Shown piece after piece: positions 16,555-64,000 of a stretch of DNA of 64,000 nucleotides (the stretch's first letter is position 1; every line of letters begins with the position of its first letter). The notes below the pieces were generated by a model, which was not told the DNA's origin, searched no databases, and saw nothing but the letters and a program-made list of their open reading frames with translations. The stretch lies in assembly GCF_048403405.1 (NCBI RefSeq), contig NZ_CP183129.1; one strand, 5' to 3'. Origin of the DNA: Escherichia coli. GTDB taxonomy: Bacteria > Pseudomonadota > Gammaproteobacteria > Enterobacterales > Enterobacteriaceae. The position numbers and the translations under genes are program-made.

Positions 16555-17185
16555 TTTTCGGAATACCTCTCCCGTTTACTCAGTTGTTCAGGCAGATGGT
16601 GAAGCAGCTCACCGTTGCCGCAGTAAATGGCGGCATGGTTCGGTACCAGCAGCACAGCAGAATATCGCCCGCCTGTGCAGAGGACAGGGGCACCCGGTAA
16701 AAGCCGGTGACCGCCATATTGTCCAGGTAAAGGTTCTGACCGTTGCGCCACCAGTCATCCTCGCGATGAAAATCCGGCATCTCAGTCCCCGCCAGATGAT
16801 AAGCATCCCGGAACAGCGTGTAACAGTCCGTCACCCCGTGCTCAAAGCGCCGTCCTGTCAGATGTGGCACACAGCGGAATTTGTGAATGTCACCCCGGCA
16901 GACCAGCCACCAGGGCAGTGCGCTTTTTATCTGCAGCCGCCGGTCAGCCTCGCTCAGCCAGGGCAGCCCACCGGGATGACTGTGGACCAGTGCCACAATC
17001 TCCCCCTGCATCTCTGCCCGCAGCCAGTCTTCCGGTGCGATACGAAAATACGCCTCCGGCTCTGCAGAAATATTCACACAAGGGATATACCACTCCCCCT
17101 CCGGCGTGCTTATCACGAAGCCGCACGACTCCGCAGGCGCACACCGCCGGGCATGCGCCAGAATCGCTGATTCAGTCTGTGTCAT
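16452..17185 (-). pseudogene. K: Tail assembly protein K (MPN/JAMM + NlpC/P60), frameshifted
   Basis: N-terminal part MTQTESAILAHARRCAPAESCGF...ALVHSHPGG... in one frame (track ORF 16580..17446), C-terminal part ...VPNHAAIYCGNGELLHHLPEQLSKRERY...IYNDLAAASACM in another frame (track ORF 16452..16751); junction near 16645 in a ctgctg repeat. Confidence 0.7.
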
Positions 17186-24182: not shown

Positions 24183-25211
24183 TTATTTCACCTGTACCAC
24201 CACAAACTCATCCGGATCCGGCAGCACCATCAGCGGAGCGGACTGCGTCATGGTGAATTCACAGGACGGATCGCCCACGGTCAGCCAGTGTTTCGGGTAA
24301 CGGGAAGAAGCCACCACTCCTTCAGACAACGCCTGTGCATCCTTAATGGCACCATAGCAACGAATCCCCTCTGCCGCCGTATTCCCCAGCACCAGCATGC
24401 CCTCCGGCAGATAACGTTTTTCGGTACCGTCCTCTGCCACATAAGACGTTTTCGCCACCACAATGGCCAGATCGCCGTAATACCCCTTGAAGGACACCAC
24501 CGCCCCCAGGTCTTTCACTGCCGTTTCGAGTTGTGAATTTGAGCCGCGACGGGTATCCAGTTTTTCGCGGAACAGCTTAAAGCCATTCAGCAGACGCCAG
24601 ACCGTACCGTCCATAATGGCGATATTCACAAGGCCGCTGGCCTGATCGCAGTAGAGGTCAATATCATGCGTCGGATCAAACGTATCACGGTCCTGCTCAG
24701 ACCATTTTTTACCGTCAGCCTGCTCAATGTTATTTCCTTCAGAGCGCCCAAAATCCACCTCGACAGTATCAAACTGATCCCCTTCCATGGTGTATTTGCC
24801 ATACAGCACGGCATTCACCGCCTGCATTTCTTCCACCTGGACAATGGCGTGCTCTTCCTGTTTGAGGTTATCGGTAATGATACGCAGACGACGGTAGGCC
24901 GGGTCGTTCAGCTGAGCCGGATCTTCACCAGGAAGGCGCTCAACCGCCTGCTGGTAATTAAATTCGTGTTTGGGCTTGACGTAGCCCGGACGTAACACGC
25001 GGGTTTCACCACCGCGATGGCGAAGCACTTTTCCTTCAACGATCGGGGAGACATAGGCCGCCACCGGCGTTTTTCCGGTAATTTTGTCCAGCATCACCTC
25101 TTCGGTGTGGAAATTCACCGTACGGCGGAAAAACAGCTCCAGAAACAGCGCACGGAATTTAACTTTTTGTTCGGTATAACCGAGTAACTGGCGGGTCGTA
25201 AACAATCCCAT
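24183..25211 (-). CDS. E: Major capsid protein E
   Basis: 342 aa; blocks VSPIV.G.V.R.RGG, PGYVKPKHE, QVEEMQAV, KLDTRRGSNS.LETAVKDLG, MTQSAPLMVLPDPDEFV match lambda gpE. Confidence 0.9.
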   Translation of the reverse strand: MGLFTTRQLLGYTEQKVKFRALFLELFFRRTVNFHTEEVMLDKITGKTPVAAYVSPIVEGKVLRHRGGETRVLRPGYVKPKHEFNYQQAVERLPGEDPAQLNDPAYRRLRIITDNLKQEEHAIVQVEEMQAVNAVLYGKYTMEGDQFDTVEVDFGRSEGNNIEQADGKKWSEQDRDTFDPTHDIDLYCDQASGLVNIAIMDGTVWRLLNGFKLFREKLDTRRGSNSQLETAVKDLGAVVSFKGYYGDLAIVVAKTSYVAEDGTEKRYLPEGMLVLGNTAAEGIRCYGAIKDAQALSEGVVASSRYPKHWLTVGDPSCEFTMTQSAPLMVLPDPDEFVVVQVK

Positions 25212-25268
25212 AAATCAGTTCCTTTCATTAAGAAATCAGTCAGGCCAACGCGGTGGCCTGATAACGTG

Positions 25269-25616
25269 TTACGGCAGCGCCGCGTGACTCAGGGCACTGC
25301 CGGTAAAGGCGTTGGCCTTTTTGTGTTCATCCACACTTTCAGGCCAGCGGATTGCCTCCGTCGCAAAGGTCCCCGACTTGTAATAGGTCAGCACCTCCTC
25401 TGTGCCTTCAAGCGGCAGTACCAGTATGCCAACCGCACTACCGGCTTTCTGTCCGTCCCAGACCACCAGTTTCCCGGTGGCCCCATCCAGCATCAGGGGT
25501 GTCAGTGCCGGTGTTGCCGAGGAAATCCCGCTGCTGCCTGTGGCGGTGTGAGCCGGATCATTACCGGCAAAAATACGTACTTCCGCACGCTGTTCAGTGA
25601 TGGTTTTCGTCACCAT
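25269..25616 (-). CDS. D: Head decoration protein D
   Basis: 115 aa MVTKTITEQRAEVRIFAGNDPAHTATGSSGISS... Confidence 0.85.
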   Translation of the reverse strand: MVTKTITEQRAEVRIFAGNDPAHTATGSSGISSATPALTPLMLDGATGKLVVWDGQKAGSAVGILVLPLEGTEEVLTYYKSGTFATEAIRWPESVDEHKKANAFTGSALSHAALP

Positions 25617-25652: not shown

Positions 25653-27157
25653 TCATGGCATGGCCATGAGCATTTTCACGCCCGCATCACCGTCTTCTGA
25701 CGCCTGTGACACGCCCCCCTGGACCGCAGCCGGTGAATGGTTCGCCATGAAATGTTCAAACAGGGCGGTTGTGGATGCAGAGACCGGTTCTGCCTTACCT
25801 GATCCCGCAGCCAGCACAGCCCGGGCGCTCTCCACAGTCATTCCCGGGCAGGCAGCCAGCTGTTCAGCCTGCGCCTCAGCCCCTTTTGCCTCATCCAGTG
25901 CCATGATCTGATCACGGAGTGATGGTCCGGCATTCGCCTGCGGTGAAGCAGCCAGGATCGGGCGGGCTTTTTCCACCGTCATCTCCGGCATCGCCGCCAG
26001 CGTTGCCGCCAGTTGTTCACGACCGTTCGCTTCTTCACACGCCATAATGCGATCGGCTTCACTCTGTGCGGATGCCACCGGCTGCTGCGGTGCCGCCGCG
26101 GCCAGAATCGCCCGGGCCTGTTCAACGCTCATGCCCTGTTGCCCTGCCAGCATCGTGGCAAGCTGTTCACGTCCTTTCGCTTCCTGGCATGTCAGGATCC
26201 CCATCACTCGCTGGTTCTCCTGCACGGCGGCTTCCGTTGCAGTTAATTGCGGCATAGTGCCTCCTCTGACATTACTGTTCAGCGCCGTGGCCATCACACT
26301 GATGGCATCCGACGCATTGATTAATTCATCCGCCAGCCCGGCCTCAATGCCGGACTGACCTTCAAAAACGGCAGCCTCTGTTCCCGTGACCGCATCAACA
26401 GACAGACCGGTATACATCGCCACTTTTTCGGCAAACATCCGGCGCGCCACATCAATCCGCTGCTGCATGTCCTGGCGAACCTCTGCCGGCAACGCTTCAA
26501 ACTGATTGCCATCCACCTTGTGCGCTCCTGAGTAAATCAGCGTGATATCCACACCGGCCTGCGCCAGATGACCGGCATAGCTGACATGGCTCATCATCAC
26601 GCCAATGGAGCCGATACGGGATGTCTGGGTAACCAGCCGTCGGGAGCAGGCCGACGCCAGCAGCATGGCTGCAGAACAGGCCGTGTCATTACACAGTGCC
26701 CAGACCGGCTTCTGCTGCCGGAGGCGGTAAATCATGTCAGCGCAGTCAAACGCGCCGGCGGCCTGCCCGCCCGGACTGTCAATGTCCAGCAGTATGCCCC
26801 GCACCTGGCTATCTGCCATTGCCTGCTGAAGACAGGCGACAATGCCGTCATAGCCAGTCATTCCGGAAAATGGCCGCATCCCCCCAGCCGGTGCACCAGC
26901 GTGCCGGTCACCGGCAGTACCGCAATACCGTTCACCACCCGGTAAACACGGGCCGGTCGTTTACCTCCGGCCATGTACTCGTCCGTTTCAGCCAGCATCC
27001 CGGGAGCATCAAGCTGTACCTGCTGTTGCGGTACCGAAAGACTTGCTGCCCCCATCTCGCGCCCGAGCGCGCAAAAGAAAACCCGCGCATAGGCGGGCTC
27101 CAGAAGCAGCGGTTCATTGAATGCTGCGGCAATAATGTGTGAAAGATTACGTCTCAC
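25653..27157 (-). pseudogene. C: Prohead protease/scaffold C (with nested Nu3), frameshifted
   Basis: N-terminal 99 aa ORF (26858..27157) ...NEPLLLEPAYARVFFCAL...VNGIAVLPVTGTLVHRLGG then premature stop; rest in another frame (25653..26879) MRPFSGMTGYDGIVACLQQAMADSQVRGILLDIDSPGG...; the shift is at a C6 run at 26881-26886 (seven C would restore the frame). Confidence 0.75.
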
Positions 27158-37946: not shown

Positions 37947-38023
37947 TGGCGCGTTGTACTGGATTCGAACCAGTGACCGATTGCTTAGAAGGCAATTGCT
38001 CTGTCCGGCTGAGCTAACAACGC
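37947..38023 (-). tRNA. argO: tRNA-Arg (anticodon TCT)
   Basis: Clean cloverleaf read by hand: acceptor gcgttgt/acaacgc, D-stem gctc/gagc, anticodon loop cttctaa, T-loop ttcgaat, 3' CCA encoded. Confidence 0.85.
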
Positions 38024-38036
38024 AGGATACAGATAA

Positions 38037-38113
38037 TGGACCGCCTTCGGGGACCCGAACTCCGCGCAACCAGCTTCGAAGGCTGGCGCTCTTTCCTGAT
38101 GAGCTAATGGCGG
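38037..38113 (-). tRNA. tRNA-like gene, possibly tRNA-Arg (anticodon TCG), imperfect stems
   Basis: Cloverleaf can be drawn (anticodon loop cttcgaa) but acceptor and T stems each have a mismatch and the T-loop lacks the usual A58. Confidence 0.5.
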
Positions 38114-38120
38114 TATGTGA

Positions 38121-38196
38121 TGGTGGCCCTTGCTGGATTTGAACCAGCGACCTGGCGATTATGAGTCGCTCGCTCTCACCACTGAGCTAAAGGGCC
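38121..38196 (-). tRNA. ileZ: tRNA-Ile2-type (anticodon CAT)
   Basis: ggccctttagctcagtggtgagagc...ctcataa...ggttcaaatccagcaagggccacca; closely resembles ileX-type tRNA. Confidence 0.85.
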
Positions 38197-38682: not shown

Positions 38683-39426
38683 CTAATCTGACGTCACACG
38701 CACCATTATACTTACTAAAGAAAAGTCATCATCAGGTCCGGCTCTCTCTATACGACGCAAAATACCATTAGAAAACTTCTGACTATTACTCATAGTATTT
38801 GATGTAAATCTGGGGCGTTTTTCCCAAACGTTATGAACTCCATCAGACATGATACACAGATGATACAACCCGTTAATACCAGGCAAATCTTTCCACGGGA
38901 TAAAATCACAGTCGTATTCCATATCAACATTTGAGGCTATGGCAGTCGTTAAGATATTTTTTCCCGGTTTATTCTTCAAATCTCTGGGTTTAAAAATATT
39001 CTGATCAATTAACATCTGATGTCTGGTATCGTCCTTCGTCAATTGATATGCTTTCTTTTCTCCAATGCAATACAAGCGACAATCACCAATATGACCAATA
39101 ATAATTCCGCTATCACAAACATAACAAAAGGTAAGTGTAGTAGCAGCTTTATCGAACTCATCATTAACTTCAGCTAACGACATAACTTTTCGCTTAACTT
39201 CAGCAAATACATTCGGAACTGCATCAAAAGATAAACTTGTCAATGCTGAAAGTTCAGCGATTGCCATGGATGAAGCATAACTGGCACCAGAGTATGAACC
39301 TACACCATCAGCTACGGCAAATAAGATGCCGTCTCCTACAATTTTTGGAGGAAGCAATGAATCTTCGTTGACCCTACCTGGTTCTTTTGGATACGAGAAT
39401 GATGAAGTCGCTATCAGCTGAATCAT
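38683..39426 (-). CDS. PP2C-family (PPM) Ser/Thr protein phosphatase
   Basis: 247 aa; PPM motifs NEDS, AVADGVGS, GDCRLY, IMSDGVHNV, DDDFSLV; AAGGAG RBS; AT-rich. Confidence 0.8.
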   Translation of the reverse strand: MIQLIATSSFSYPKEPGRVNEDSLLPPKIVGDGILFAVADGVGSYSGASYASSMAIAELSALTSLSFDAVPNVFAEVKRKVMSLAEVNDEFDKAATTLTFCYVCDSGIIIGHIGDCRLYCIGEKKAYQLTKDDTRHQMLIDQNIFKPRDLKNKPGKNILTTAIASNVDMEYDCDFIPWKDLPGINGLYHLCIMSDGVHNVWEKRPRFTSNTMSNSQKFSNGILRRIERAGPDDDFSLVSIMVRVTSD

Positions 39427-39529
39427 GACTCACTCCTTAAAAAAGAATGCGCAAAATCAAACGCCACATCATCTATTGTCTGATATCTATCATCTTTATC
39501 CATCCTTGTGCACTTAGCTATGATAGGCT

Positions 39530-40186
39530 TTATTTTTTATCATCTAAATTTAAGTCTTCAATTAACCGTCCCACAGCATAAACATCAGTCTTAACTGAAT
39601 ACTCTGCATTATATAAAATCTCGGGAGCCATATATCTTGTACTTCCCATACGGGTACCGATCTCGGTCAATTTAGTGGTATCCCCTTCGGGATTCGTATC
39701 TTTTACCAGACCAAAATCAGACACCTTGTATGTTCCGTCGCTAAATCGCAAAACATTAAAGGGTTTTATATCTCTGTGTAAATAGCCTTTGGCATGGATG
39801 TAAGCTACACCATCTAATACCATTTTCACTATTGAAATTTTTTGATCTGTTGTAAGAAGGTTGTTCGTTATTTCGTGCTCAAGATCACATTCTGCTTTAT
39901 CCATAATGAACCATGGATTCTCAACAAACAAATCGCACAAATAAATAGGAACAATATTGCTATGTACGCAATGTGATTGATACACAACCTCCCTTTTAAA
40001 ACGCCTTCTAAACTGCTCTATTTGCGCCAAAAGCTCTGGTTTTTCGGGTGCTAAAACCTTTCTAGCATAATCCCCGCATTCACCTTTATTGAGGTTGTAA
40101 ACCTTAACGTGTTCAACAAAGCCAAATGCCCCTCTTCCAATCAACTGAATTCGTTTTATAAAGTAATTACCGTGCTGTTCTTCCAT
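39530..40186 (-). CDS. Hanks-type Ser/Thr protein kinase (compact, ~219 aa)
   Basis: G-loop GRGAFGFV, Lys in YARKVL, catalytic loop HRDIKPFN, SDFG, MAPE, TDVYAVG; start set at MEEQ with GGTGAG RBS (track ORF extends to 40261); AT-rich. Confidence 0.8.
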   Translation of the reverse strand: MEEQHGNYFIKRIQLIGRGAFGFVEHVKVYNLNKGECGDYARKVLAPEKPELLAQIEQFRRRFKREVVYQSHCVHSNIVPIYLCDLFVENPWFIMDKAECDLEHEITNNLLTTDQKISIVKMVLDGVAYIHAKGYLHRDIKPFNVLRFSDGTYKVSDFGLVKDTNPEGDTTKLTEIGTRMGSTRYMAPEILYNAEYSVKTDVYAVGRLIEDLNLDDKK

Positions 40187-46081: not shown

Positions 46082-46135
46082 GAAAATAGCACAGAGTGTA
46101 GCATCAGAGTGTACTGACCCCAAAAAGTTGGACAG

Positions 46136-46987
46136 TTAAACACGAGGCATATAGGTCTGATTCCGATATTCAATTGGAGTCAGACCTTTTAATTTCAGGC
46201 TAATTCTTCTGCTGTTGTAGTATTCAATATATTCCGTAACAGCATCCTTCAGTTCGCTTATATTACTGAACTCATCAAGATAAAAACACTCCGACTTTAA
46301 GGTTCCAAAGAAACACTCCACCACAGCATTATCCAGACAATTGCCTTTTCTGGACATGCTTTGTTTAATACCATGTTCTTTAAGGATATTTTGATATCTT
46401 CTCATACGATACTGCCATCCCTGGTCAGAGTGCAGAACAGGATGCTCGTGAGGATTAAGCTTTTTGAATGCCTGATCGAGCATATTCTCAACCATGTTCA
46501 TCACTGGTCTTTCCGAAAGGCTGTAAGAAATAACTTCGTTGTTGAAGAGATCTATTACTGGAGACAAATACAGCTTGCGCCCATTGACTGCAAATTCAGT
46601 AACATCGGTAACCCACTTCTCGTTTGGCCGCGTAGCCTTGAAATCTCTTTGGAGAACATTAGGGGCGGTTTGCCCTACCTCTCCTCTGTAAGAGCGGTAT
46701 CGCTTGACCTTAATCGCTGCTTTAAGTGAGAGGGTTCCCATCAGGCGCTGAACAGCTTTATGGTTAATCTGTTTCCCTTCTCGATGAAGAGACAGCGTTA
46801 CCCTACGGTATCCGTATCGGCCTCTATTCTCGTGATAAATCTCACTAATACGCTTTTTAACGTCCGCATACTTGTCAGGCTTGCTGAGAGCCTTTAGATG
46901 ATAATAAAACGTACTGCGCGGTATCTCCGCAGCCCTGAGAAGCTCATCAAGAGGATAAAACTGCCTTAGCTCGTTGAGTACTTTCAC
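46136..46987 (-). CDS. insK: IS150 transposase OrfB (DDE domain)
   Basis: 283 aa; ...[48 protein letters not shown]... Confidence 0.9.
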
Positions 46988-47505
46988 TTTTTCGTGGGAT
47001 GAGCTAAGGCTTTCAGCTTTTTTAGATACATAAGCCGCGTTTCAAGAAATCGAACTTGCCTTTCAAGATCCTCAATGCGTCGGTCTTTTGACAGCTCCAA
47101 TGCTGATGCCGCTTTTTCTGGATCAACTGATATTGCAATGTTTCTTTTGGTGCCAATCTTGAGCGCGCGTAAACCAGCTTCTCCGCGCTCTTCATAGACC
47201 TTCAGCCACCTGGCTACAGAACCACTACCAGCAAGCATAAAGTGAGCAGCAGCCTGATTAAGGGACATGTGCTGCTCGATCACAGCTTTCACGACCTTAA
47301 TACGCAACTCTGGATCAGCACTAACGCCTTTAGGTTTGGGAATTAAACCTTTTTCTCCATGTTTTTCATAGAGGGCAACCCATGTCCTGACCTGGGTTCG
47401 GGGGACACCAAAACGTGCCGAGATGATCCTGTAACCATCATCAGTTGTGAAGTAGTGATTCACGACTTCAAGGCGCTTTTCAAAAGGGTATTTTGGCTTT
47501 GACAT
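46984..47505 (-). CDS. insJ: IS150 transposase OrfA (HTH)
   Basis: 173 aa MSKPKYPFEKRLEVVNHYFTTDDGYRIISARFGVPRTQVRTWVALYEKHG...; 4 nt overlap with orfB. Confidence 0.9.
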   Translation of the reverse strand: MSKPKYPFEKRLEVVNHYFTTDDGYRIISARFGVPRTQVRTWVALYEKHGEKGLIPKPKGVSADPELRIKVVKAVIEQHMSLNQAAAHFMLAGSGSVARWLKVYEERGEAGLRALKIGTKRNIAISVDPEKAASALELSKDRRIEDLERQVRFLETRLMYLKKLKALAHPTKK

Positions 47506-47680
47506 ATTAGGGGCTATTCCATTTCATCGTCCAACAAAATGGGTGCAGTACAGAGCAGGGCTATCGGGAATATATGTCTAAATCTGGTAATATCTGGTTT
47601 TGACGCAAAGCGGACAACCACGCTGGCTCTACCCTGCGCCATGAAAATGTCAATTCACATCTGAACTAATGCTCTTTAAT

Positions 47681-57019: not shown

Positions 57020-58127
57020 AACCGATGTTCCGGGATTATCTCCGTATTTTGACAAAAGAAATAACAAAGTTTACTGGCGTTACAGGCATCCCATAACAGG
57101 CAAAAATCACGGTCTCGGCAGTATTGACCAGAAACTGGCAGAAACTATTGCAGCAGAAGCGAACAGCCGTCTTGCCCGGCAGCAAATGGAACAAATGCTC
57201 AGTCTGCAGGAGAAAATTATTAGTGATACCGGCGGTTCATCAACCGTTACCATTTTTCTGAATAATTACAGAAAAATTCAACAGGAAAGATATGAAAACG
57301 GCGAGATCAAACTCAACACGCTGAAACAGAAAGCGGCCCCTCTCAGGGTATTTGATGAACGTTTTGGCACCAGACCGTTAGATGCCATAACCGTAAAAGA
57401 TGTGGTATCAGTACTGGAAGAGTACAAGGCCAGAGGACATAACAGAATGGGACAAATTTTCAGGAAAGTACTGATCGATGTTTTCCGGGAAGCTCAGCAA
57501 ACGGGCGATGTCCCGCCAGGCTTTAACCCTGCAGAATCGGCAAAAAAACCGCAGGTGCGGATATCAAGACAGCGACTGACTTTTGATGAGTGGATGATGA
57601 TTTATAACGCAGCGGAAAAGAATGGTTACTTTTTACAGCGCGGTATGCTGCTGGCACTGATGACAGGCCAGCGCCTTTCAGATATTTGCAAAATGCAATT
57701 TTCGGATATCCGGGATGGTTATCTTCATGTCGAACAGCAAAAAACAGGAACCCGGATTGCCATCCCTCTGGCTCTGCGTTGCGATAAATTAAATCTCACC
57801 CTGGATGATGTAGTGTCATCCTGCCGCGATTGCGTTCTTAGTCCGTGGCTATTGCACCACCATCACGCGAAAGGGACAGCTAAGCGCGGCGGGATGGTTA
57901 AGCCAGCAACATTAACCGTTGCATTTAAAAAAGCCCGGGATTCTGTGGATTACAACTGGCGTGCTAATGGCACCCCACCCTCTTTCCATGAGCAGAGATC
58001 TTTATCAGAGCGATTGTTCAGAGAGCAGGGGGTTGATACCAAAATTTTGCTAGGCCATTCGAATCAAAAAATGACCGATATTTACAACGATGTACGCGGT
58101 AAGGAGTGGAAAAAACTGGTCATTTGA
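56997..58127 (+). CDS. int: Tyrosine site-specific integrase
   Basis: 376 aa; C-terminal catalytic region with R...HxxR...Y (FHEQRSLSERL, LLGHSNQKMTDIY); next to att. Confidence 0.9.
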   Translation: MARPRKYKTDVPGLSPYFDKRNNKVYWRYRHPITGKNHGLGSIDQKLAETIAAEANSRLARQQMEQMLSLQEKIISDTGGSSTVTIFLNNYRKIQQERYENGEIKLNTLKQKAAPLRVFDERFGTRPLDAITVKDVVSVLEEYKARGHNRMGQIFRKVLIDVFREAQQTGDVPPGFNPAESAKKPQVRISRQRLTFDEWMMIYNAAEKNGYFLQRGMLLALMTGQRLSDICKMQFSDIRDGYLHVEQQKTGTRIAIPLALRCDKLNLTLDDVVSSCRDCVLSPWLLHHHHAKGTAKRGGMVKPATLTVAFKKARDSVDYNWRANGTPPSFHEQRSLSERLFREQGVDTKILLGHSNQKMTDIYNDVRGKEWKKLVI

Positions 58128-58172
58128 TGACCAGTTTTGCAGAAGAGTTTTGCAGAGGTTTTGCAGAGAAAA

Positions 58173-58826
58173 TTAAAAACGATATCCTGCCGAGAACATA
58201 AACACCCACGGGTCAAGGCGTACATTGTCGCTATAACTGCCTTTAGCCAGTTTACGACCATCAGATTTATACTTCGCGGTGGTATCGATATCCATGTACC
58301 AGACTGACATGTTAACCAACCAGTCACGGTTAATCAGATAATCAACCCCCACCTGCCCGGCAGCTCCCCAGGAATCTTTCAGACTGAGATCGGAAAGCCC
58401 CGCCTCTTTGCCATGATCGTTAAATCCATTATCAAAGAAGGTGGTGTAGTTAATACCTGCCCCAACGTAAGGACGGAATTTGCTGCTGGCATCACCAAAA
58501 TACCACTGCGCCATCAGTGTTGGCGGCAGATGATGAACGGTTGCAATATCGCCGGTCGCCCGGGTGCCGATTTTATGGCGGAACGGCGTCGCTGCCAGCA
58601 ATTCCACACCAATGTTATCGGTCGCCATATAAGTAAACGTCAGGCCCAGTTGCGTGTTATTGGTCACGCTGAATCCACCCAGACTTCCTAACGTACCACC
58701 AGCACCTTCTGTTGGACGTACGGTTGCAGACCCTGCACGCATAAAAAATTCGCCTGCTTCATGCGCATAGGCACTGCCAGAGAGAAGAGTTGTTACTGCC
58801 AAAGCCGCCACTGTTAACTTTTTCAT
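58173..58826 (-). CDS. ompW: Outer membrane protein OmpW with phage-supplied variant C-terminal segment
   Basis: 217 aa; N-terminal 183 aa canonical OmpW; C-terminal ...TTAKYKSDGRKLAKGSYSDNVRLDPWVFMFSAGYRF differs from the chromosomal remnant at the left junction (...TTANYKLGGAQQHDSVRLDPW...). Confidence 0.9.
   Translation of the reverse strand: MKKLTVAALAVTTLLSGSAYAHEAGEFFMRAGSATVRPTEGAGGTLGSLGGFSVTNNTQLGLTFTYMATDNIGVELLAATPFRHKIGTRATGDIATVHHLPPTLMAQWYFGDASSKFRPYVGAGINYTTFFDNGFNDHGKEAGLSDLSLKDSWGAAGQVGVDYLINRDWLVNMSVWYMDIDTTAKYKSDGRKLAKGSYSDNVRLDPWVFMFSAGYRF
58277..58301. repeat. attR core region (shared with 5954-5978)
   Basis: cggtggtatcgatatccatgtacca repeated at both prophage ends. Confidence 0.6.
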
Positions 58827-59182
58827 ATCCGCTCCGTCGTTATGGTTATAAAAACGTGACGAATATACCTACATTGGAGTAACAAATGATCCTACATAGG
58901 TCACATTACATATGATAATTCACCATTTATTGATCTGGATTAATTTAGAAGTTGCATTGAGAATCCTGGTTAATGTGATTTAAATCAATTTTTAAATATT
59001 TTCGCTACGCAAATATTAACTCGACCGCCACTTGCCGCGATTTGCCCACGTCTGAAGGCCAGCAATTACCTCCGCTTTACAAAGATATGCTTTTCCATAC
59101 AAGACCTGATGCTGCCACCCGAGGCTTAACCAGGGTACAATTGCCCGCTAATTAACACCTGCATAAAACTCAAGGAGAGTGC

Positions 59183-59926
59183 ATGTCTATCACGGCGCAG
59201 TCCGTATACCGTGACACCGGAAATTTCTTCCGTAATCAATTTATGACCATTCTGTTGGTATCGTTGCTATGTGCGTTTATCACAGTGGTGTTAGGGCATG
59301 TTTTCTCACCCAGTGATGCACAGCTTGCGCAGCTCAATGACGGCGTGCCCGTTAGCGGCAGTAGTGGGTTGTTCGACCTGGTTCAGAATATGTCACCGGA
59401 ACAGCAACAAATTTTGCTGCAGGCTTCAGCGGCGTCCACTTTTTCAGGATTAATCGGTAACGCCATTCTCGCCGGAGGCGTAATATTAATTATCCAGCTG
59501 GTGTCTGCGGGTCAGAGAGTCAGTGCGCTGCGAGCTATTGGTGCCAGTGCGCCGATATTGCCAAAGTTATTTATTCTGATTTTTCTGACTACCCTTTTAG
59601 TACAGATTGGCATCATGCTGGTGGTCGTTCCGGGAATTATCATGGCCATTTTACTGGCCCTGGCACCGGTGATGTTGGTACAGGACAAAATGGGCGTTTT
59701 TGCCTCGATGCGTAGCAGTATGCGGCTGACTTGGGCGAATATGCGTCTGGTGGCACCCGCAGTACTGAGCTGGTTGCTGGCAAAAACACTGTTGCTGCTT
59801 TTTGCCTCTTCTTTTGCCGCATTAACCCCGGAAATTGGTGCCGTACTGGCGAACACCTTGAGCAACCTGATTTCAGCCGTACTGCTCATCTATCTGTTCC
59901 GCCTGTATATGTTGATTCGCCAATAA
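59183..59926 (+). CDS. yciC: Inner membrane protein YciC (UPF0259)
   Basis: 247 aa multi-TM ORF, conserved position after ompW. Confidence 0.85.
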
Positions 59927-59955
59927 CCTTAAGCATTTGATTACGGAATCGTAAA

Positions 59956-60495
59956 ATGAAGCAGTTTCTTGATTTTTTACCGCTGGTTGTCTTTTTCGCG
60001 TTTTACAAGATTTATGACATCTATGCGGCTACTGCGGCGCTGATCGTCGCCACGGCGATTGTGCTTATATATAGCTGGGTTCGCTTTCGTAAGGTTGAGA
60101 AGATGGCCCTGATCACTTTTGTTCTGGTGGTCGTCTTCGGTGGCTTGACCCTGTTCTTCCACAATGATGAGTTTATTAAATGGAAGGTTACTGTCATTTA
60201 TGCCCTGTTTGCGGGTGCCCTGTTAGTCAGCCAATGGGTGATGAAAAAGCCGCTAATTCAGCGGATGCTGGGTAAAGAACTCACGCTGCCGCAACCGGTA
60301 TGGTCGAAGCTGAATCTGGCCTGGGCTGTTTTCTTTATCCTTTGCGGTCTTGCAAACATCTACATCGCATTCTGGCTGCCGCAAAATATTTGGGTCAACT
60401 TTAAAGTCTTTGGCCTGACCGCCCTTACCTTAATCTTCACATTGTTAAGCGGTATCTATATCTACCGCCACATGCCGCAGGAAGATAAATCCTAA
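59956..60495 (+). CDS. yciB: Intracellular septation protein A (YciB)
   Basis: 179 aa multi-[36 protein letters not shown]... Confidence 0.85.
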
Positions 60496-60599
60496 CCAGA
60501 CTGCCAGTCCTTCGGGGCTGGCGCTGTATCTCCTCTGTTCTCCTCAGGAAAATCATAGTAGCATCGCGCCTGTGATTTTCCTTTTAAGTCGGTTTTACC

Positions 60600-60998
60600 A
60601 TGTCTACAACACATAACGTCCCTCAGGGCGATCTTGTTTTACGTACTTTAGCCATGCCCGCCGATACCAATGCCAATGGTGACATCTTTGGTGGTTGGTT
60701 AATGTCACAAATGGATATTGGCGGCGCTATTCTGGCGAAAGAAATTGCCCACGGTCGCGTAGTGACTGTGCGGGTTGAAGGAATGACTTTCTTACGGCCG
60801 GTTGCGGTCGGCGATGTGGTGTGCTGCTATGCACGCTGTGTCCAGAAAGGGACGACATCGGTCAGCATTAATATTGAAGTGTGGGTGAAAAAAGTAGCGT
60901 CTGAACCCATCGGGCAACGCTATAAAGCGACAGAAGCATTATTTAAGTATGTCGCGGTTGATCCTGAAGGAAAACCTCGCGCCTTACCTGTTGAGTAA
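60600..60998 (+). CDS. yciA: Acyl-CoA thioester hydrolase YciA (hotdog fold)
   Basis: 132 aa MSTTHNVPQGDLVLRTLAMPADTNANGDIFGGWLMSQMD... Confidence 0.85.
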   Translation: MSTTHNVPQGDLVLRTLAMPADTNANGDIFGGWLMSQMDIGGAILAKEIAHGRVVTVRVEGMTFLRPVAVGDVVCCYARCVQKGTTSVSINIEVWVKKVASEPIGQRYKATEALFKYVAVDPEGKPRALPVE

Positions 60999-61037
60999 TA
61001 ATCAAAAGCCTCCGGTCGGAGGCTTTTGACTTTCTGC

Positions 61038-61757
61038 TTACTGAATTTCGGTGGTGCCGTTAATTTTAAACAGGATATTCACCACAATCCCACTGCCTGG
61101 CTTACCCGGCTCATAACGCCATCTGCGCATCGCATTTTTCACCTCACGCTCAAACATATTCGCAGGCTTGGCTGAGAGGATTTGTACGTTATCCACGCGA
61201 CCATCCGGCGTGACGTCAAATTTAACTTTAACCTGCCCTTCAATGCGCAATGCCTGTGCTCGTGCCGGATACTGCGGCTGATTACGGCTTAATGCGCGTG
61301 GTCCTGAAGCCACACTGGTAACCGGCTTGCTGGTTGCAGCCGTCGCCGTACTTGATGTCGGGCGTGCCGGTGCCGTATTTTCAAACGGTGATGCCGGACG
61401 CGACTCTACGGGTTTGACATCGCGTTTTGGCTGTTCCTGTACCTTTTTCACCGGCTTCGGTTTTGGCTTAGGTTTCGGCTTCGGCTTTTCAATGACCACC
61501 GGTGCTTCTTTTGGCGGTTCGGGGATCGGCTCAGGTTCCGGTTCTGGCTCTACCACCGGCTCCGGTGGCGGCTGAACGGCTTGTGGCGGTTCGAGATCCG
61601 CAGGCGCAACCATCGTGACAGAAATTGGCTGCGCAGGCGCAGGTAGTTCAATAACCTGATGTACCGAGGTATAGAGCAGACCCGCCACAACAGCACCATG
61701 AATGCAGACCGAAAGTAACGTCGGCCAGGGGAAGCGGCGAGGTAAATCAAGGGTCAT
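61038..61757 (-). CDS. tonB: TonB energy transducer
   Basis: [29 protein letters not shown]..., Pro-rich (EP)n/(KP)n spacer, C-terminal domain; start set at MTLDL (track ORF extends to 61808). Confidence 0.9.
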
Positions 61758-61980
61758 TGAAGTCATAATCATTTCAGTAGAAAAACCAGGCCTCGATTTT
61801 AAATGCAAATAGCAATCATATTCAATAAGGCAAGACGATCAGGATCAGTGAAAATGTCATTTTTGGCGTAATTGACCTTACTTTATGCATGGTCTTAACA
61901 AAGACATCATCTTTCCGTTGCAGATCTTCGCCCTTTCAAATAACGTACTTTACAACTTTCCCGAACAAGGAGTTGTGCCC

Positions 61981-62277
61981 GTGTTGTATGTTATTTACGC
62001 TCAAGACAAAGCTGATAGCCTCGAAAAACGCCTTTCCGTTCGTCCGGCACATTTAGCACGTTTACAGTTACTGCATGATGAAGGTCGTTTGTTGACAGCT
62101 GGTCCAATGCCAGCGGTAGACAGTAACGATCCAGGGGCTGCGGGATTTACTGGCTCAACCGTTATTGCTGAATTTGAATCGCTGGAAGCAGCTCAGGCCT
62201 GGGCCGATGCTGACCCGTACGTAGCGGCAGGAGTCTATGAACACGTTTCAGTGAAACCATTTAAGAAAGTGTTCTGA
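61981..62277 (+). CDS. yciI: YciI-like protein (98 aa, likely GTG start)
   Basis: (V)[41 protein letters not shown]...; track ORF extends upstream to 61885. Confidence 0.7.
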
Positions 62278-62577
62278 ATAGAGATTCAATATTTAAGGGC
62301 ACGGTTTTTGCAACCGTGTTCTTGTTTGGCCTTTCCTTATAGGTCGGTCAGTGCATTCCCCCCCACAAGCAGATAATAACTTTATCTGTATTTCTTTATA
62401 TGATGTGAGCATATTCAGGAAAAATGCCCTTTCCTGACGCAGAGTTGCTCACTCAAAACCTTTGATTACTGCGGATAAAGTCATCTACTATTGTTTAACA
62501 CATTCACGCGCTGCATGTATGTTCAGAAAATGTGCACGCTAAGATAATTAAACAAAATTGTGGTTACAGAGGTATCA

Positions 62578-63831
62578 GTGAGTCACTGGGCTACATTCAA
62601 ACAAACAGCAACTAATTTATGGGTGACCCTACGGCACGACATTCTCGCGCTGGCCGTCTTTTTAAATGGATTGCTTATTTTTAAAACAATCTATGGTATG
62701 TCGGTCAATTTGCTAGATATTTTCCATATCAAAGCATTTTCAGAGTTGGATCTCTCATTGCTGGCAAACGCCCCACTCTTTATGCTCGGCGTCTTTCTTG
62801 TCCTGAACTCCATTGGCTTACTGTTCCGGGCAAAGCTCGCATGGGCAATCAGTATCATTTTGTTGTTGATAGCGCTAATTTACACCCTGCATTTTTATCC
62901 CTGGCTGAAATTTAGTATTGGATTTTGCATTTTTACGCTGGTGTTTTTGCTGATACTGCGCAAAGACTTCTCCCACAGTAGCGCCGCAGCCGGGACAATT
63001 TTCGCATTTATTAGTTTCACGACGTTACTGTTTTACTCCACCTACGGTGCGCTTTATTTAAGCGAAGGTTTTAATCCGCGAATAGAAAGTTTGATGACCG
63101 CGTTCTATTTTTCGATAGAAACCATGTCAACCGTCGGCTATGGCGATATTGTCCCTGTTTCTGAATCAGCACGATTGTTCACTATTTCGGTCATTATTTC
63201 CGGCATTACCGTTTTTGCCACCTCCATGACTTCAATTTTTGGTCCGCTTATCCGCGGGGGATTCAACAAACTTGTAAAAGGAAACAATCATACAATGCAT
63301 CGTAAAGATCATTTTATTGTTTGCGGACATTCGATTCTCGCCATCAATACGATTCTGCAACTGAATCAACGCGGACAAAACGTAACGGTTATCAGCAATT
63401 TGCCTGAAGATGATATCAAGCAACTTGAGCAACGCTTAGGTGATAACGCTGATGTTATCCCCGGTGACAGTAATGACAGTTCAGTATTAAAGAAAGCAGG
63501 AATCGATCGATGCCGGGCCATTCTGGCGCTGAGTGATAACGATGCAGATAACGCGTTTGTTGTACTCTCGGCAAAAGATATGAGCAGTGATGTCAAAACA
63601 GTTCTCGCCGTCAGTGATAGCAAAAACCTGAATAAGATTAAGATGGTACATCCGGATATCATTCTCTCACCGCAACTGTTTGGCAGCGAAATTCTGGCGC
63701 GAGTTTTAAATGGTGAAGAGATTAATAATGATATGCTCGTTTCAATGTTGTTGAACTCCGGTCATGGTATTTTCAGCGATAACGATGAACAAAAAACGAA
63801 AGCTGACAATAAAGAATTGGCGCAAAAATAG
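62578..63831 (+). CDS. kch: Voltage-gated potassium channel Kch (likely GTG start)
   Basis: Selectivity filter TVGYGD, six TM helices, C-terminal RCK/TrkA-like domain; track ORF starts at 62560. Confidence 0.85.
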   Translation: MSHWATFKQTATNLWVTLRHDILALAVFLNGLLIFKTIYGMSVNLLDIFHIKAFSELDLSLLANAPLFMLGVFLVLNSIGLLFRAKLAWAISIILLLIALIYTLHFYPWLKFSIGFCIFTLVFLLILRKDFSHSSAAAGTIFAFISFTTLLFYSTYGALYLSEGFNPRIESLMTAFYFSIETMSTVGYGDIVPVSESARLFTISVIISGITVFATSMTSIFGPLIRGGFNKLVKGNNHTMHRKDHFIVCGHSILAINTILQLNQRGQNVTVISNLPEDDIKQLEQRLGDNADVIPGDSNDSSVLKKAGIDRCRAILALSDNDADNAFVVLSAKDMSSDVKTVLAVSDSKNLNKIKMVHPDIILSPQLFGSEILARVLNGEEINNDMLVSMLLNSGHGIFSDNDEQKTKADNKELAQK

Positions 63832-64000
63832 ACTTTAAAGACGGAAGAGTAAACTTATTGGGCACCGCAATGGTGCCCAGTACATTTAGATATTGTAGAT
63901 CGCAAACAATAACGAGTTACGCTGTTTGTTTAGAATGCACTTCCTGATGCTGTGGATACGCATATTTCGGCGCGACTGCCCCTCAAGCCAACGCGATTTA

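What the first reader, a model, noticed from the sequence alone, without database searches (positions are those of the whole stretch)
26871..26886. Head protease/scaffold gene C frameshifted in a homopolymer
The C coding sequence switches frame at a C6 run (late strand G6); one extra base would restore a continuous lambda-like C protein. Either the prophage is defective for head maturation or this is a homopolymer sequencing error.
Basis: seen in the sequence. Interest (0 to 1): 0.4.

Follow-up and report, generated by a model that had tools for sequence, protein, structure and literature searches.

The report
Frameshifted prophage head-protease gene (G7→G6)
A lambda-like prophage in this E. 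coli window has its head-maturation protease gene broken by the loss of one G from a run of seven, an ordinary inactivating lesion (or possibly a base-calling error) seen and annotated as "frameshifted" in other genomes, and the same prophage also has a second broken tail gene.

Summary
On the − strand, the lambda C / phage 21 gene 5 homologue (27157→25653) changes frame at a G6 run (window 26880-26885). Adding one G gives a 501-aa S49 protease–scaffold protein identical to an intact RefSeq protein.

- **Allele counts.** Among complete E. coli genomes with identical flanks, 434 have G7, 10 have G6 (the two I fetched are annotated "frameshifted") and 2 have G8. All 17 close phage matches are frameshift-free at this site. 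Phage 21 encodes the same Gly-Gly as GGT GGT, so the run is a synonymous indel hotspot and not a conserved recoding site.
- **Effect.** The break falls at residue 93/94, just after the first β-strand of the protease fold. It separates a conserved N-terminus from the catalytic Ser162/Lys214. The nested Nu3-like scaffold gene is untouched.
- **Real or error.** This cannot be settled without reads. I favour a real mutation (~0.6), because the window is base-perfect against independent assemblies in its host flank and all other long homopolymers in the prophage agree with the reference.
- **Other lesions.** The prophage also has a private 10-bp deletion in its K-like tail gene and an IS3-family insertion, so as sequenced it cannot make virions on its own in any case.

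Ordinary finding, low interest.

The parts
26880..26885 (-). G6 homopolymer (C6 on + strand). This is the frameshift site; intact relatives have G7 (CTG GGG GGG ATG = Leu-Gly-Gly-Met).
25653..27157 (-). Whole C-like gene (phage 21 gene 5 / lambda C homologue, S49 prohead protease plus scaffold domain). It is 1505 nt where intact copies are 1506 nt, so it is a pseudogene as sequenced.
26858..27157 (-). N-terminal fragment ORF: GTG start, 93 native residues plus 6 out-of-frame residues (CGHFPE), TGA stop. It contains the conserved N-terminus and β1 of the protease fold. The TGA overlaps an in-frame ATG of the downstream frame (ATGA at 26858-26861).
25653..26879 (-). Downstream ORF in the −1 frame (408 aa from ATG 26879; gene callers also pick 402 aa from ATG 26861). 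It holds the rest of the S49 domain, including the putative catalytic Ser162 and Lys214 (501-aa numbering), and the scaffold-like C-terminus.
25653..26255 (-). Nested Nu3-like scaffolding ORF (200 aa, ATG 26255, GAGGAGG Shine-Dalgarno 5 nt upstream). It is in the surviving frame and 3' of the lesion, so it is unaffected.
   Evidence: position taken from the phage 21 annotation OL657228.1
27147..28739 (-). Portal gene (lambda B-like), intact, overlapping the start of the C-like gene by 11 nt.
24183..25616 (-). Head decoration (25269-25616) and major capsid (24183-25211) genes. Both are intact and identical to the reference copy.
16580..17185 (-). Second lesion in the same prophage: the K-like tail gene (JAB + NlpC/P60) with a private 10-bp deletion at ~16647/16648. 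The product is frameshifted and truncated (201 aa against 247 aa).
46110..47550 (-). IS3-family element (ORFs of 173 and 283 aa; looks like IS150) inserted in the early region. The otherwise identical reference prophage lacks it.

Best explanation
A genuine one-base deletion by replication slippage in a G7 tract (G7→G6) has frameshifted the head-maturation protease/scaffold gene (lambda C, phage 21 gene 5 type) of a recently acquired ~50-kb lambdoid prophage inserted at ompW. Translation from the native GTG ends after 99 residues. The catalytic part of the S49 protease is cut off from its conserved N-terminus and from the first β-strand of its fold, so no functional protease is expected (inferred). 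The portal, nested Nu3-like scaffold, decoration and capsid genes are intact. By analogy with lambda C mutants, proheads could still assemble but would not mature (inferred). With the 10-bp deletion in the K-like tail gene, the prophage as sequenced cannot make infectious virions unaided. The G7 tract is a synonymous indel hotspot in this gene family, not a functional element.
For: Shown:
- The frame break and its restoration by one G.
- G7 in the 20 complete genomes whose 601 bp are otherwise identical.
- Allele tally with identical flanks: G6 10, G7 434, G8 2.
- The two G6 copies I fetched (C25, CRE287) are annotated 'frameshifted' in RefSeq.
- The 99-aa fragment diagnostic of G6 is indexed in 183 blocks of public assemblies, most of them contigs shorter than 10 kb.
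- A G8 contig is identical to the reference prophage over 9,995 bp.

Accuracy of the window:
- Window 1-5983 is 100% identical, with no gaps, to an independent assembly and to six complete genomes. This includes two odd −1 deletions in yciF, which are therefore real.
- In the ~49 kb of prophage otherwise identical to ECO_2_R, all 20 A/T runs of ≥7 and all 5 other G/C runs of 6 agree with it.
- 72 of 75 reference genes are intact.

Relaxed selection on the prophage:
- A private 10-bp non-homopolymer deletion in the K-like gene and an IS insertion.

Functional reading:
- S49 domain at residues 146-293.
- SppA homology starts at residue 77, with Ser162 and Lys214 downstream of the break at 93/94.
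- C and K are both essential in lambda (PMC10695390).
Against: A −1 error in a G/C homopolymer is the classic residual error of long-read and flow-based assemblies. This is the longest G/C run in the prophage, so a clean record on the other runs does not exclude it. No independent assembly or read set of this strain could be found, so G6 is unverified in this strain. Three disruptive lesions with zero substitutions across ~49 kb is more than simple neutral expectation (my own reasoning, not computed), which raises the possibility of local assembly problems. Loss of protease function is inferred from domain architecture, not tested.
Confidence: 0.62

Rival explanations
1. Sequencing or assembly error. 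The strain really has G7 and an intact gene, and one G was lost in consensus calling at the longest G/C homopolymer of the prophage.
For: The nearest relatives differ at this locus only by having G7. Several other assemblies with G6 are visibly noisy, with terminase, tape-measure and other genes split into pieces (L010, L013, L014, L016, L017). 'Phage 204576' has another indel a few bases away. The window's genome is not among the RefSeq complete genomes or the protein collection searched, so its quality is undocumented.
Against: The window has no other homopolymer discrepancy in ~49 kb. It matches independent assemblies exactly over 5,983 bp of host flank. G6 also occurs in loci where no other gene looks broken in the gene lists (L012, L015, L018), and its diagnostic fragment is indexed in many short contigs, whose sequencing technology is not known to me. 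The neighbouring 10-bp deletion is not a homopolymer-type error.
Confidence: 0.3
2. The G6 allele is still expressed by recoding. The zero-frame sequence G GGG GGA is formally an X XXY YYZ slippery heptamer, and a −1 ribosomal slip there would give exactly the wild-type Leu-Gly-Gly-Met junction. Alternatively, termination-reinitiation at the ATGA overlap yields an N-terminally truncated protease. Since only a few gpC copies per prohead are thought to be needed (from my own knowledge of lambda), low-level rescue might suffice.
For: The heptamer and the ATGA overlap are in the sequence. The −1 frame is the one that restores the protein.
Against: Relatives overwhelmingly have the unshifted G7 gene (434 against 10). 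All close phages are frameshift-free at this site, and phage 21 lacks the run altogether. The downstream RNA fold is no better than shuffled sequence (z = −1.0). There is no suitably spaced Shine-Dalgarno sequence for the ATG at 26879. A reinitiated product would lack β1 of the protease fold and the conserved N-terminus.
Confidence: 0.04

Closest known systems
Phage 21 gene 5 product (capsid protease/scaffolding protein, OL657228.1 / M81255.1)
   Same: 98% nucleotide identity over the 601-bp test region. The gene is the same length (1506 nt when restored). It sits in the same position between the portal and decoration genes and has the same nested scaffold ORF.
   Different: Phage 21 encodes Gly-Gly as GGT GGT, so it has no homopolymer and no frameshift. 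The window's copy is broken.
Lambda gpC (S49 prohead protease) with nested gpNu3 scaffold
   Same: Homologous along the N-terminus, the S49 domain and the Nu3-like C-terminus. Gene order is the same: B-C/Nu3-D-E. C is essential in lambda (PMC10695390), and C, Nu3 and B form the head initiator (PMC3224144).
   Different: Lambda C is 439 aa against 501 aa. Lambda lacks extra repeats present in the scaffold region here and has no G-run at the equivalent site.
RefSeq 'S49 family peptidase, frameshifted' pseudogenes in E. coli C25 and CRE287 (two of the 10 complete genomes with the G6 82-mer)
   Same: Exactly the same G7→G6 lesion at the same codon.
   Different: They lie on slightly different backbones (3 SNPs in 601 bp for C25 and CRE287). 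The window's backbone is otherwise seen only with G7 or G8.
Defective lambdoid prophages of E. coli O157 Sakai (Sp series)
   Same: Lambdoid prophages disabled by frameshifts, deletions and IS insertions in morphogenesis genes (PMC2669165).
   Different: In Sakai, head defects were shown experimentally to be complemented by co-resident prophages. Nothing is known here about other prophages in the strain.

Membership tests
Lambda gpC / phage 21 gp5 prohead protease-scaffold (MEROPS/Pfam S49) | Peptidase_S49 domain | tested here: met
   PF01343, E = 1.9e-34, residues 146-293 of the restored protein. Homology to SppA structures 3RST/4KWB covers residues 77-290.
Lambda gpC / phage 21 gp5 prohead protease-scaffold (MEROPS/Pfam S49) | Catalytic Ser/Lys dyad conserved | tested here: met
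   Ser162 (TACSAA) aligns with the SppA active-site Ser. Lys214 (SGAHKVDG) aligns with the position that is Ala in 3RST; that this is the K199A mutant is from my memory. Both residues are conserved in lambda C.
Lambda gpC / phage 21 gp5 prohead protease-scaffold (MEROPS/Pfam S49) | Position between the portal and decoration/major capsid genes of a lambda-type head module | tested here: met
   Order terL-W-portal-C-D-E-FI-FII.
Lambda gpC / phage 21 gp5 prohead protease-scaffold (MEROPS/Pfam S49) | Nested in-frame scaffold (Nu3-like) ORF with its own ribosome-binding site | tested here: met
   ATG 26255 preceded by GAGGAGG, 200 aa, collinear with the annotated phage 21 scaffold CDS. Expression was not tested.
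Lambda gpC / phage 21 gp5 prohead protease-scaffold (MEROPS/Pfam S49) | Single continuous reading frame | tested here: not met
   The frame breaks at G6. The gene is 1505 nt with 16 stops when read through. It is a pseudogene of this family as sequenced.
Lambda gpC / phage 21 gp5 prohead protease-scaffold (MEROPS/Pfam S49) | Proteolytic processing of portal and scaffold during prohead maturation | not testable with these tools
   Needs biochemistry or induction experiments.
Programmed −1 ribosomal frameshift site | Slippery heptamer X XXY YYZ in the zero frame | tested here: met
   G GGG GGA in the frame of the N-terminal ORF. Meeting the pattern is formal only.
Programmed −1 ribosomal frameshift site | Downstream stimulatory RNA structure | tested here: not met
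   The 89 nt downstream fold at −32.4 kcal/mol, z = −1.02, and 33 of 200 shuffles fold as well.
Programmed −1 ribosomal frameshift site | Shifted two-ORF arrangement conserved among relatives | tested here: not met
   G7 (one ORF) in 434 records against G6 in 10. All close phages are frameshift-free at this site, and phage 21 has GGT GGT.
Homopolymer contingency (phase-variable) locus | Tract-length polymorphism among otherwise identical sequences | tested here: met
   G6 (window), G7 (ECO_2_R and others) and G8 (L019) on a backbone with no SNPs. G8 also occurs in 2 complete genomes.
Homopolymer contingency (phase-variable) locus | Tract maintained by selection against synonymous interruption | tested here: inconclusive
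   Phage 21 interrupts the tract with no change in protein. The frequency of interrupted alleles could not be counted.
Homopolymer contingency (phase-variable) locus | Reversible switching within a clonal population | not testable with these tools
   Needs deep read data or fluctuation assays.

The most novel reading that the evidence does not exclude
The G7 tract in the head-protease gene of this widespread phage-21-type head module could act as a hypermutable on/off switch for virion production. G6, G7 and G8 are all seen on an identical backbone. The off state might be partly leaky through −1 slippage on G GGG GGA. That would be a contingency locus in a prophage morphogenesis gene, not just decay or error.
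Probability: 0.05. Interest if true: 0.5.

Novelty: already known. Interest (0 to 1): 0.15.

Why it matters
It matters little beyond annotation. The gene should be annotated as a frameshifted pseudogene of an S49 prohead protease, and the prophage as defective, since the K-like tail gene is also broken. Two points are practically useful. First, this G7 tract is a recurrent indel site in a head module present in about a third of complete E. coli genomes, so G6 or G8 calls there should be checked against reads before a prophage is scored as intact or defective. Second, a prophage with no SNPs relative to copies in unrelated hosts, yet carrying three disruptive lesions, illustrates how quickly lambdoid prophages are disabled after lysogenisation, provided the lesions are real.

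Tried and rejected
1. Looked for an independent assembly of the same strain.
   - The K Δ10 junction is in none of 5,426 complete genomes.
   - The truncated K product and the 408-aa product are not on record.
   - The 402-aa product is on record only in a G8 Logan contig.
   - So G6 could not be verified or refuted for this strain.
2. Used the host flank as a quality gauge. The full 7.6-kb query gave only 98.8% matches because it spans the prophage junction. Restricting it to 1-5983 gave six 100% matches.
3. Suspected the two −1 deletions in yciF were evidence of a noisy assembly. Rejected: they are shared by independent assemblies and annotated as frameshifted in MS 69-1.
4. Tried to score the noisiness of other G6-bearing loci by counting indels against ECO_2_R. 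The ~4% divergence produced paired alignment gaps, so those counts are not usable. I relied on the split-gene patterns instead.
5. Tested for a frameshift-stimulating structure and found none.
6. Tried to read Medina et al. 2010 (gpC is the viral protease). It is not held, so the catalytic residues were placed by alignment to SppA structures.
7. Tried to count phage-21-type GGTGGT alleles with the window's flanks. There were no exact matches because phage 21 has a nearby SNP, so the frequency of interrupted alleles remains unknown.

Full report
**Observation.** The + strand carries C6 at window 26880-26885. On the − strand, an ORF begins at GTG 27157, overlapping the end of the portal gene (28739→27147). 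It reads ...NGIAVLPVTGTLVHRLGG, then six out-of-frame residues (CGHFPE), and stops at TGA 26858-26860 (99 aa). The −1 frame opens with ATG 26879, immediately 3' of the run, and continues 408 aa to 25653. Adding one G gives a 501-aa protein. It is identical to the intact 'S49 family peptidase' of strain 118UI (annotated as WP_109866648.1), nearly identical to phage 21 gp5, and collinear with lambda gpC.

**What the gene is.** The restored protein has a Peptidase_S49 domain at residues 146-293 (E = 2e-34). It aligns to the catalytic domain of B. subtilis SppA (3RST/4KWB) from residue 77 to 290. The first β-strand, GIAVLPVTGTL, lies just before the break at residue 93/94. The putative catalytic Ser162 and Lys214 lie after it. 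The gene sits in a lambda-type head module: terS-terL-W-portal-C-D-E-FI-FII, followed by the tail genes.

The closest characterised relative is phage 21, at 98% nucleotide identity. Its annotation shows a 1506-nt 'capsid protease/scaffolding protein' with a nested scaffold CDS. The equivalent nested start in the window is ATG 26255, with a GAGGAGG Shine-Dalgarno sequence. It lies 3' of the lesion and in the surviving frame, so the Nu3-like scaffold is untouched. In lambda, C is the essential head protease that joins portal B and scaffold Nu3 in the head initiator (PMC3224144; PMC10695390 Table 1, EOP < 2e-7).

**How relatives look at this site.**
- A 601-bp query finds the module in 2,027 of 5,426 complete E. 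coli genomes. The 20 best hits are identical except for one extra base, and that base is a seventh G.
- With 82-84-mers centred on the run, so that a single gap drops identity below 99%, records with identical flanks split as G6 = 10, G7 = 434, G8 = 2.
- The two G6 copies I fetched, in C25 and CRE287, are annotated as 'frameshifted' pseudogenes. They sit on a backbone differing from the window at three positions, so the same deletion occurs on more than one backbone.
- All 17 close phage records span 602 bases, meaning they have no frameshift at this site. The exception is the unannotated record 'phage 204576', which has G7 but another indel nearby.
- Phage 21 encodes the same Leu-Gly-Gly-Met as CTG GGT GGT ATG. 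The homopolymer is therefore a synonymous variant, not a conserved element.
- In the wider public collection, the 99-aa fragment diagnostic of G6 is indexed in 183 blocks. Some of the loci shown have many other split genes (L010, L013, L014, L016, L017). In others no other gene looks broken (L012, L015, L018).
- The exact intact 501-aa protein is indexed in 332 blocks.
- A Logan read-set contig (SRR28002182, L019) is identical to the reference prophage over 9,995 bp except that it has G8.
- So G6, G7 and G8 all occur on one backbone with no SNPs. The tract is an indel hotspot, biological or technical or both.

**Context of the window.** The window holds a ~50-kb lambdoid prophage inserted at ompW, between trp-yciGFE and yciC-tonB-kch. 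Compared with the copy in ECO_2_R (also ECO_1_S and MSB1_7C), the prophage has no substitutions at all. It has three differences:
- the G-run;
- a 10-bp deletion at ~16647/16648 in the K-like tail gene (JAB + NlpC/P60), which truncates it to 201 aa;
- a 1.44-kb IS3-family insertion at 46110-47550.

The Δ10 junction is found in no complete genome. K is essential for lambda tail assembly. The host flanks differ by ~1% from ECO_2_R. They are 100% identical to six other complete genomes. One of these, MS 69-1, has an empty ompW site. The prophage therefore arrived recently, presumably as a working phage, and the lesions are younger than that (inference).

**Real mutation or error?** No reads and no second assembly of this strain could be found.

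Points favouring a real mutation:
- Window 1-5983 matches independent assemblies exactly. This includes two odd −1 deletions in yciF, which looked like errors but are lineage-wide and annotated as a frameshifted pseudogene.
- In the ~49 kb of prophage shared with ECO_2_R, all 20 A/T runs of ≥7 and all 5 other G/C runs of 6 agree with it.
- 72 of 75 reference genes are intact.
- The neighbouring Δ10 and IS insertion are not homopolymer artefacts, and they show a prophage no longer under selection for virion production.

Points favouring an error:
- This is the single longest G/C run in the prophage, and a −1 call there is the typical residual error of several platforms (my background knowledge).
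- Many other G6 assemblies are visibly noisy.
- Three disruptive lesions with zero SNPs is an unusual ratio (my own reasoning, not computed).

I put a real mutation at about 0.6 and an error at about 0.3.

**Consequence.** If real, translation from the native start yields a 99-aa fragment. A 402- or 408-aa product could arise only by internal initiation. The TGA stop overlaps an in-frame ATG (ATGA), so termination-reinitiation is conceivable. Such a product would lack β1 and the conserved N-terminus. I infer loss of protease function and, by analogy with lambda C mutants, assembly of proheads that cannot mature. Co-resident lambdoid prophages can complement head defects (PMC2669165), and many E. 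coli carry several copies of this module (up to 6 places per genome). Whether this strain does is unknown.

**Recoding considered.** In the G6 allele, the zero frame reads G GGG GGA, formally an X XXY YYZ heptamer. A −1 slip there would recreate the wild-type junction. Three things argue against it. The shifted arrangement is rare and not conserved. The downstream RNA is no more structured than shuffled sequence (z = −1.0). Phage 21 dispenses with the run. I give this about 0.04.

**Verdict.** The finding is correct and its interpretation is supported. It is an ordinary frameshifted pseudogene, or possibly a homopolymer miscall, in a known gene family, and the same lesion is already annotated as 'frameshifted' in other genomes. 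The prophage is defective as sequenced in any case, because its K-like tail gene is also broken. Novelty: already known. Interest: low.

Noticed in passing
window 16580-17185 (− strand), deletion junction ~16647/16648: The lambda K-like tail gene (JAB + NlpC/P60 domains) has a 10-bp deletion relative to otherwise identical prophage copies. It frameshifts and truncates the protein to 201 aa (intact: 247 aa). The junction is absent from all 5,426 complete E. coli genomes, and the product is not on record in the public protein collection.
   Followed up: yes
window ~46110-47550: A 1.44-kb IS3-family insertion sequence (ORFs of 173 and 283 aa; resembles IS150) sits between the QueH-like and DUF977 genes of the prophage early region. 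The ECO_2_R copy lacks it, and about 5 bp of target sequence is repeated at the ends.
   Followed up: partly
window 4755-5253 (+ strand), host gene yciF: yciF carries two separate one-base deletions and reads in three successive frames, yet each segment is almost perfectly conserved. The same sequence is present in an independent draft assembly and six complete genomes, and the gene is annotated as frameshifted in MS 69-1. It is a true, recent, lineage-wide pseudogene.
   Followed up: yes
window ~7500-58100 (whole prophage) against the flanks 1-5983 and 58100-64000: The prophage has zero substitutions relative to copies in ECO_2_R, ECO_1_S and MSB1_7C, whose host flanks differ by ~1%. A complete genome with the window's exact host flank (MS 69-1) has an empty ompW site. 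This points to very recent lysogenisation, followed by three disruptive lesions and no SNPs.
   Followed up: partly
L019 (Logan assembly of SRR28002182), position ~4555-4585: A 9,995-bp contig is identical to the reference prophage except that it has G8 at the same tract. This gives a 103-aa N-terminal fragment plus the same 402-aa downstream product. G8 is also present in two complete genomes (ST648, E17).
   Followed up: partly
window 6905-7573 (+ strand): There is an intact 222-aa class I SAM-dependent methyltransferase ORF at the prophage end. The corresponding gene in ECO_2_R is annotated as frameshifted and differs from the window by four small indels (at window 6856, 6926-6927, 7423 and 7499-7500).
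   Followed up: partly
window 26858-26861 (− strand): The TGA that ends the 99-aa N-terminal fragment overlaps an in-frame ATG of the downstream ORF (ATGA). This is the arrangement typical of translational coupling, and some gene callers start the downstream product there (402 aa).
   Followed up: partly
window 37947-38196 (− strand) and 38683-40186: Prophage cargo includes three tRNA genes: Arg-tct, Arg-tcg, and a cat-anticodon tRNA that ARAGORN calls Met and RefSeq calls Ile. Next to them is a Ser/Thr kinase and PP2C phosphatase gene pair. SASA esterase, Lom, hokD, dicB and QueH-like genes are also present elsewhere in the prophage.
   Followed up: no
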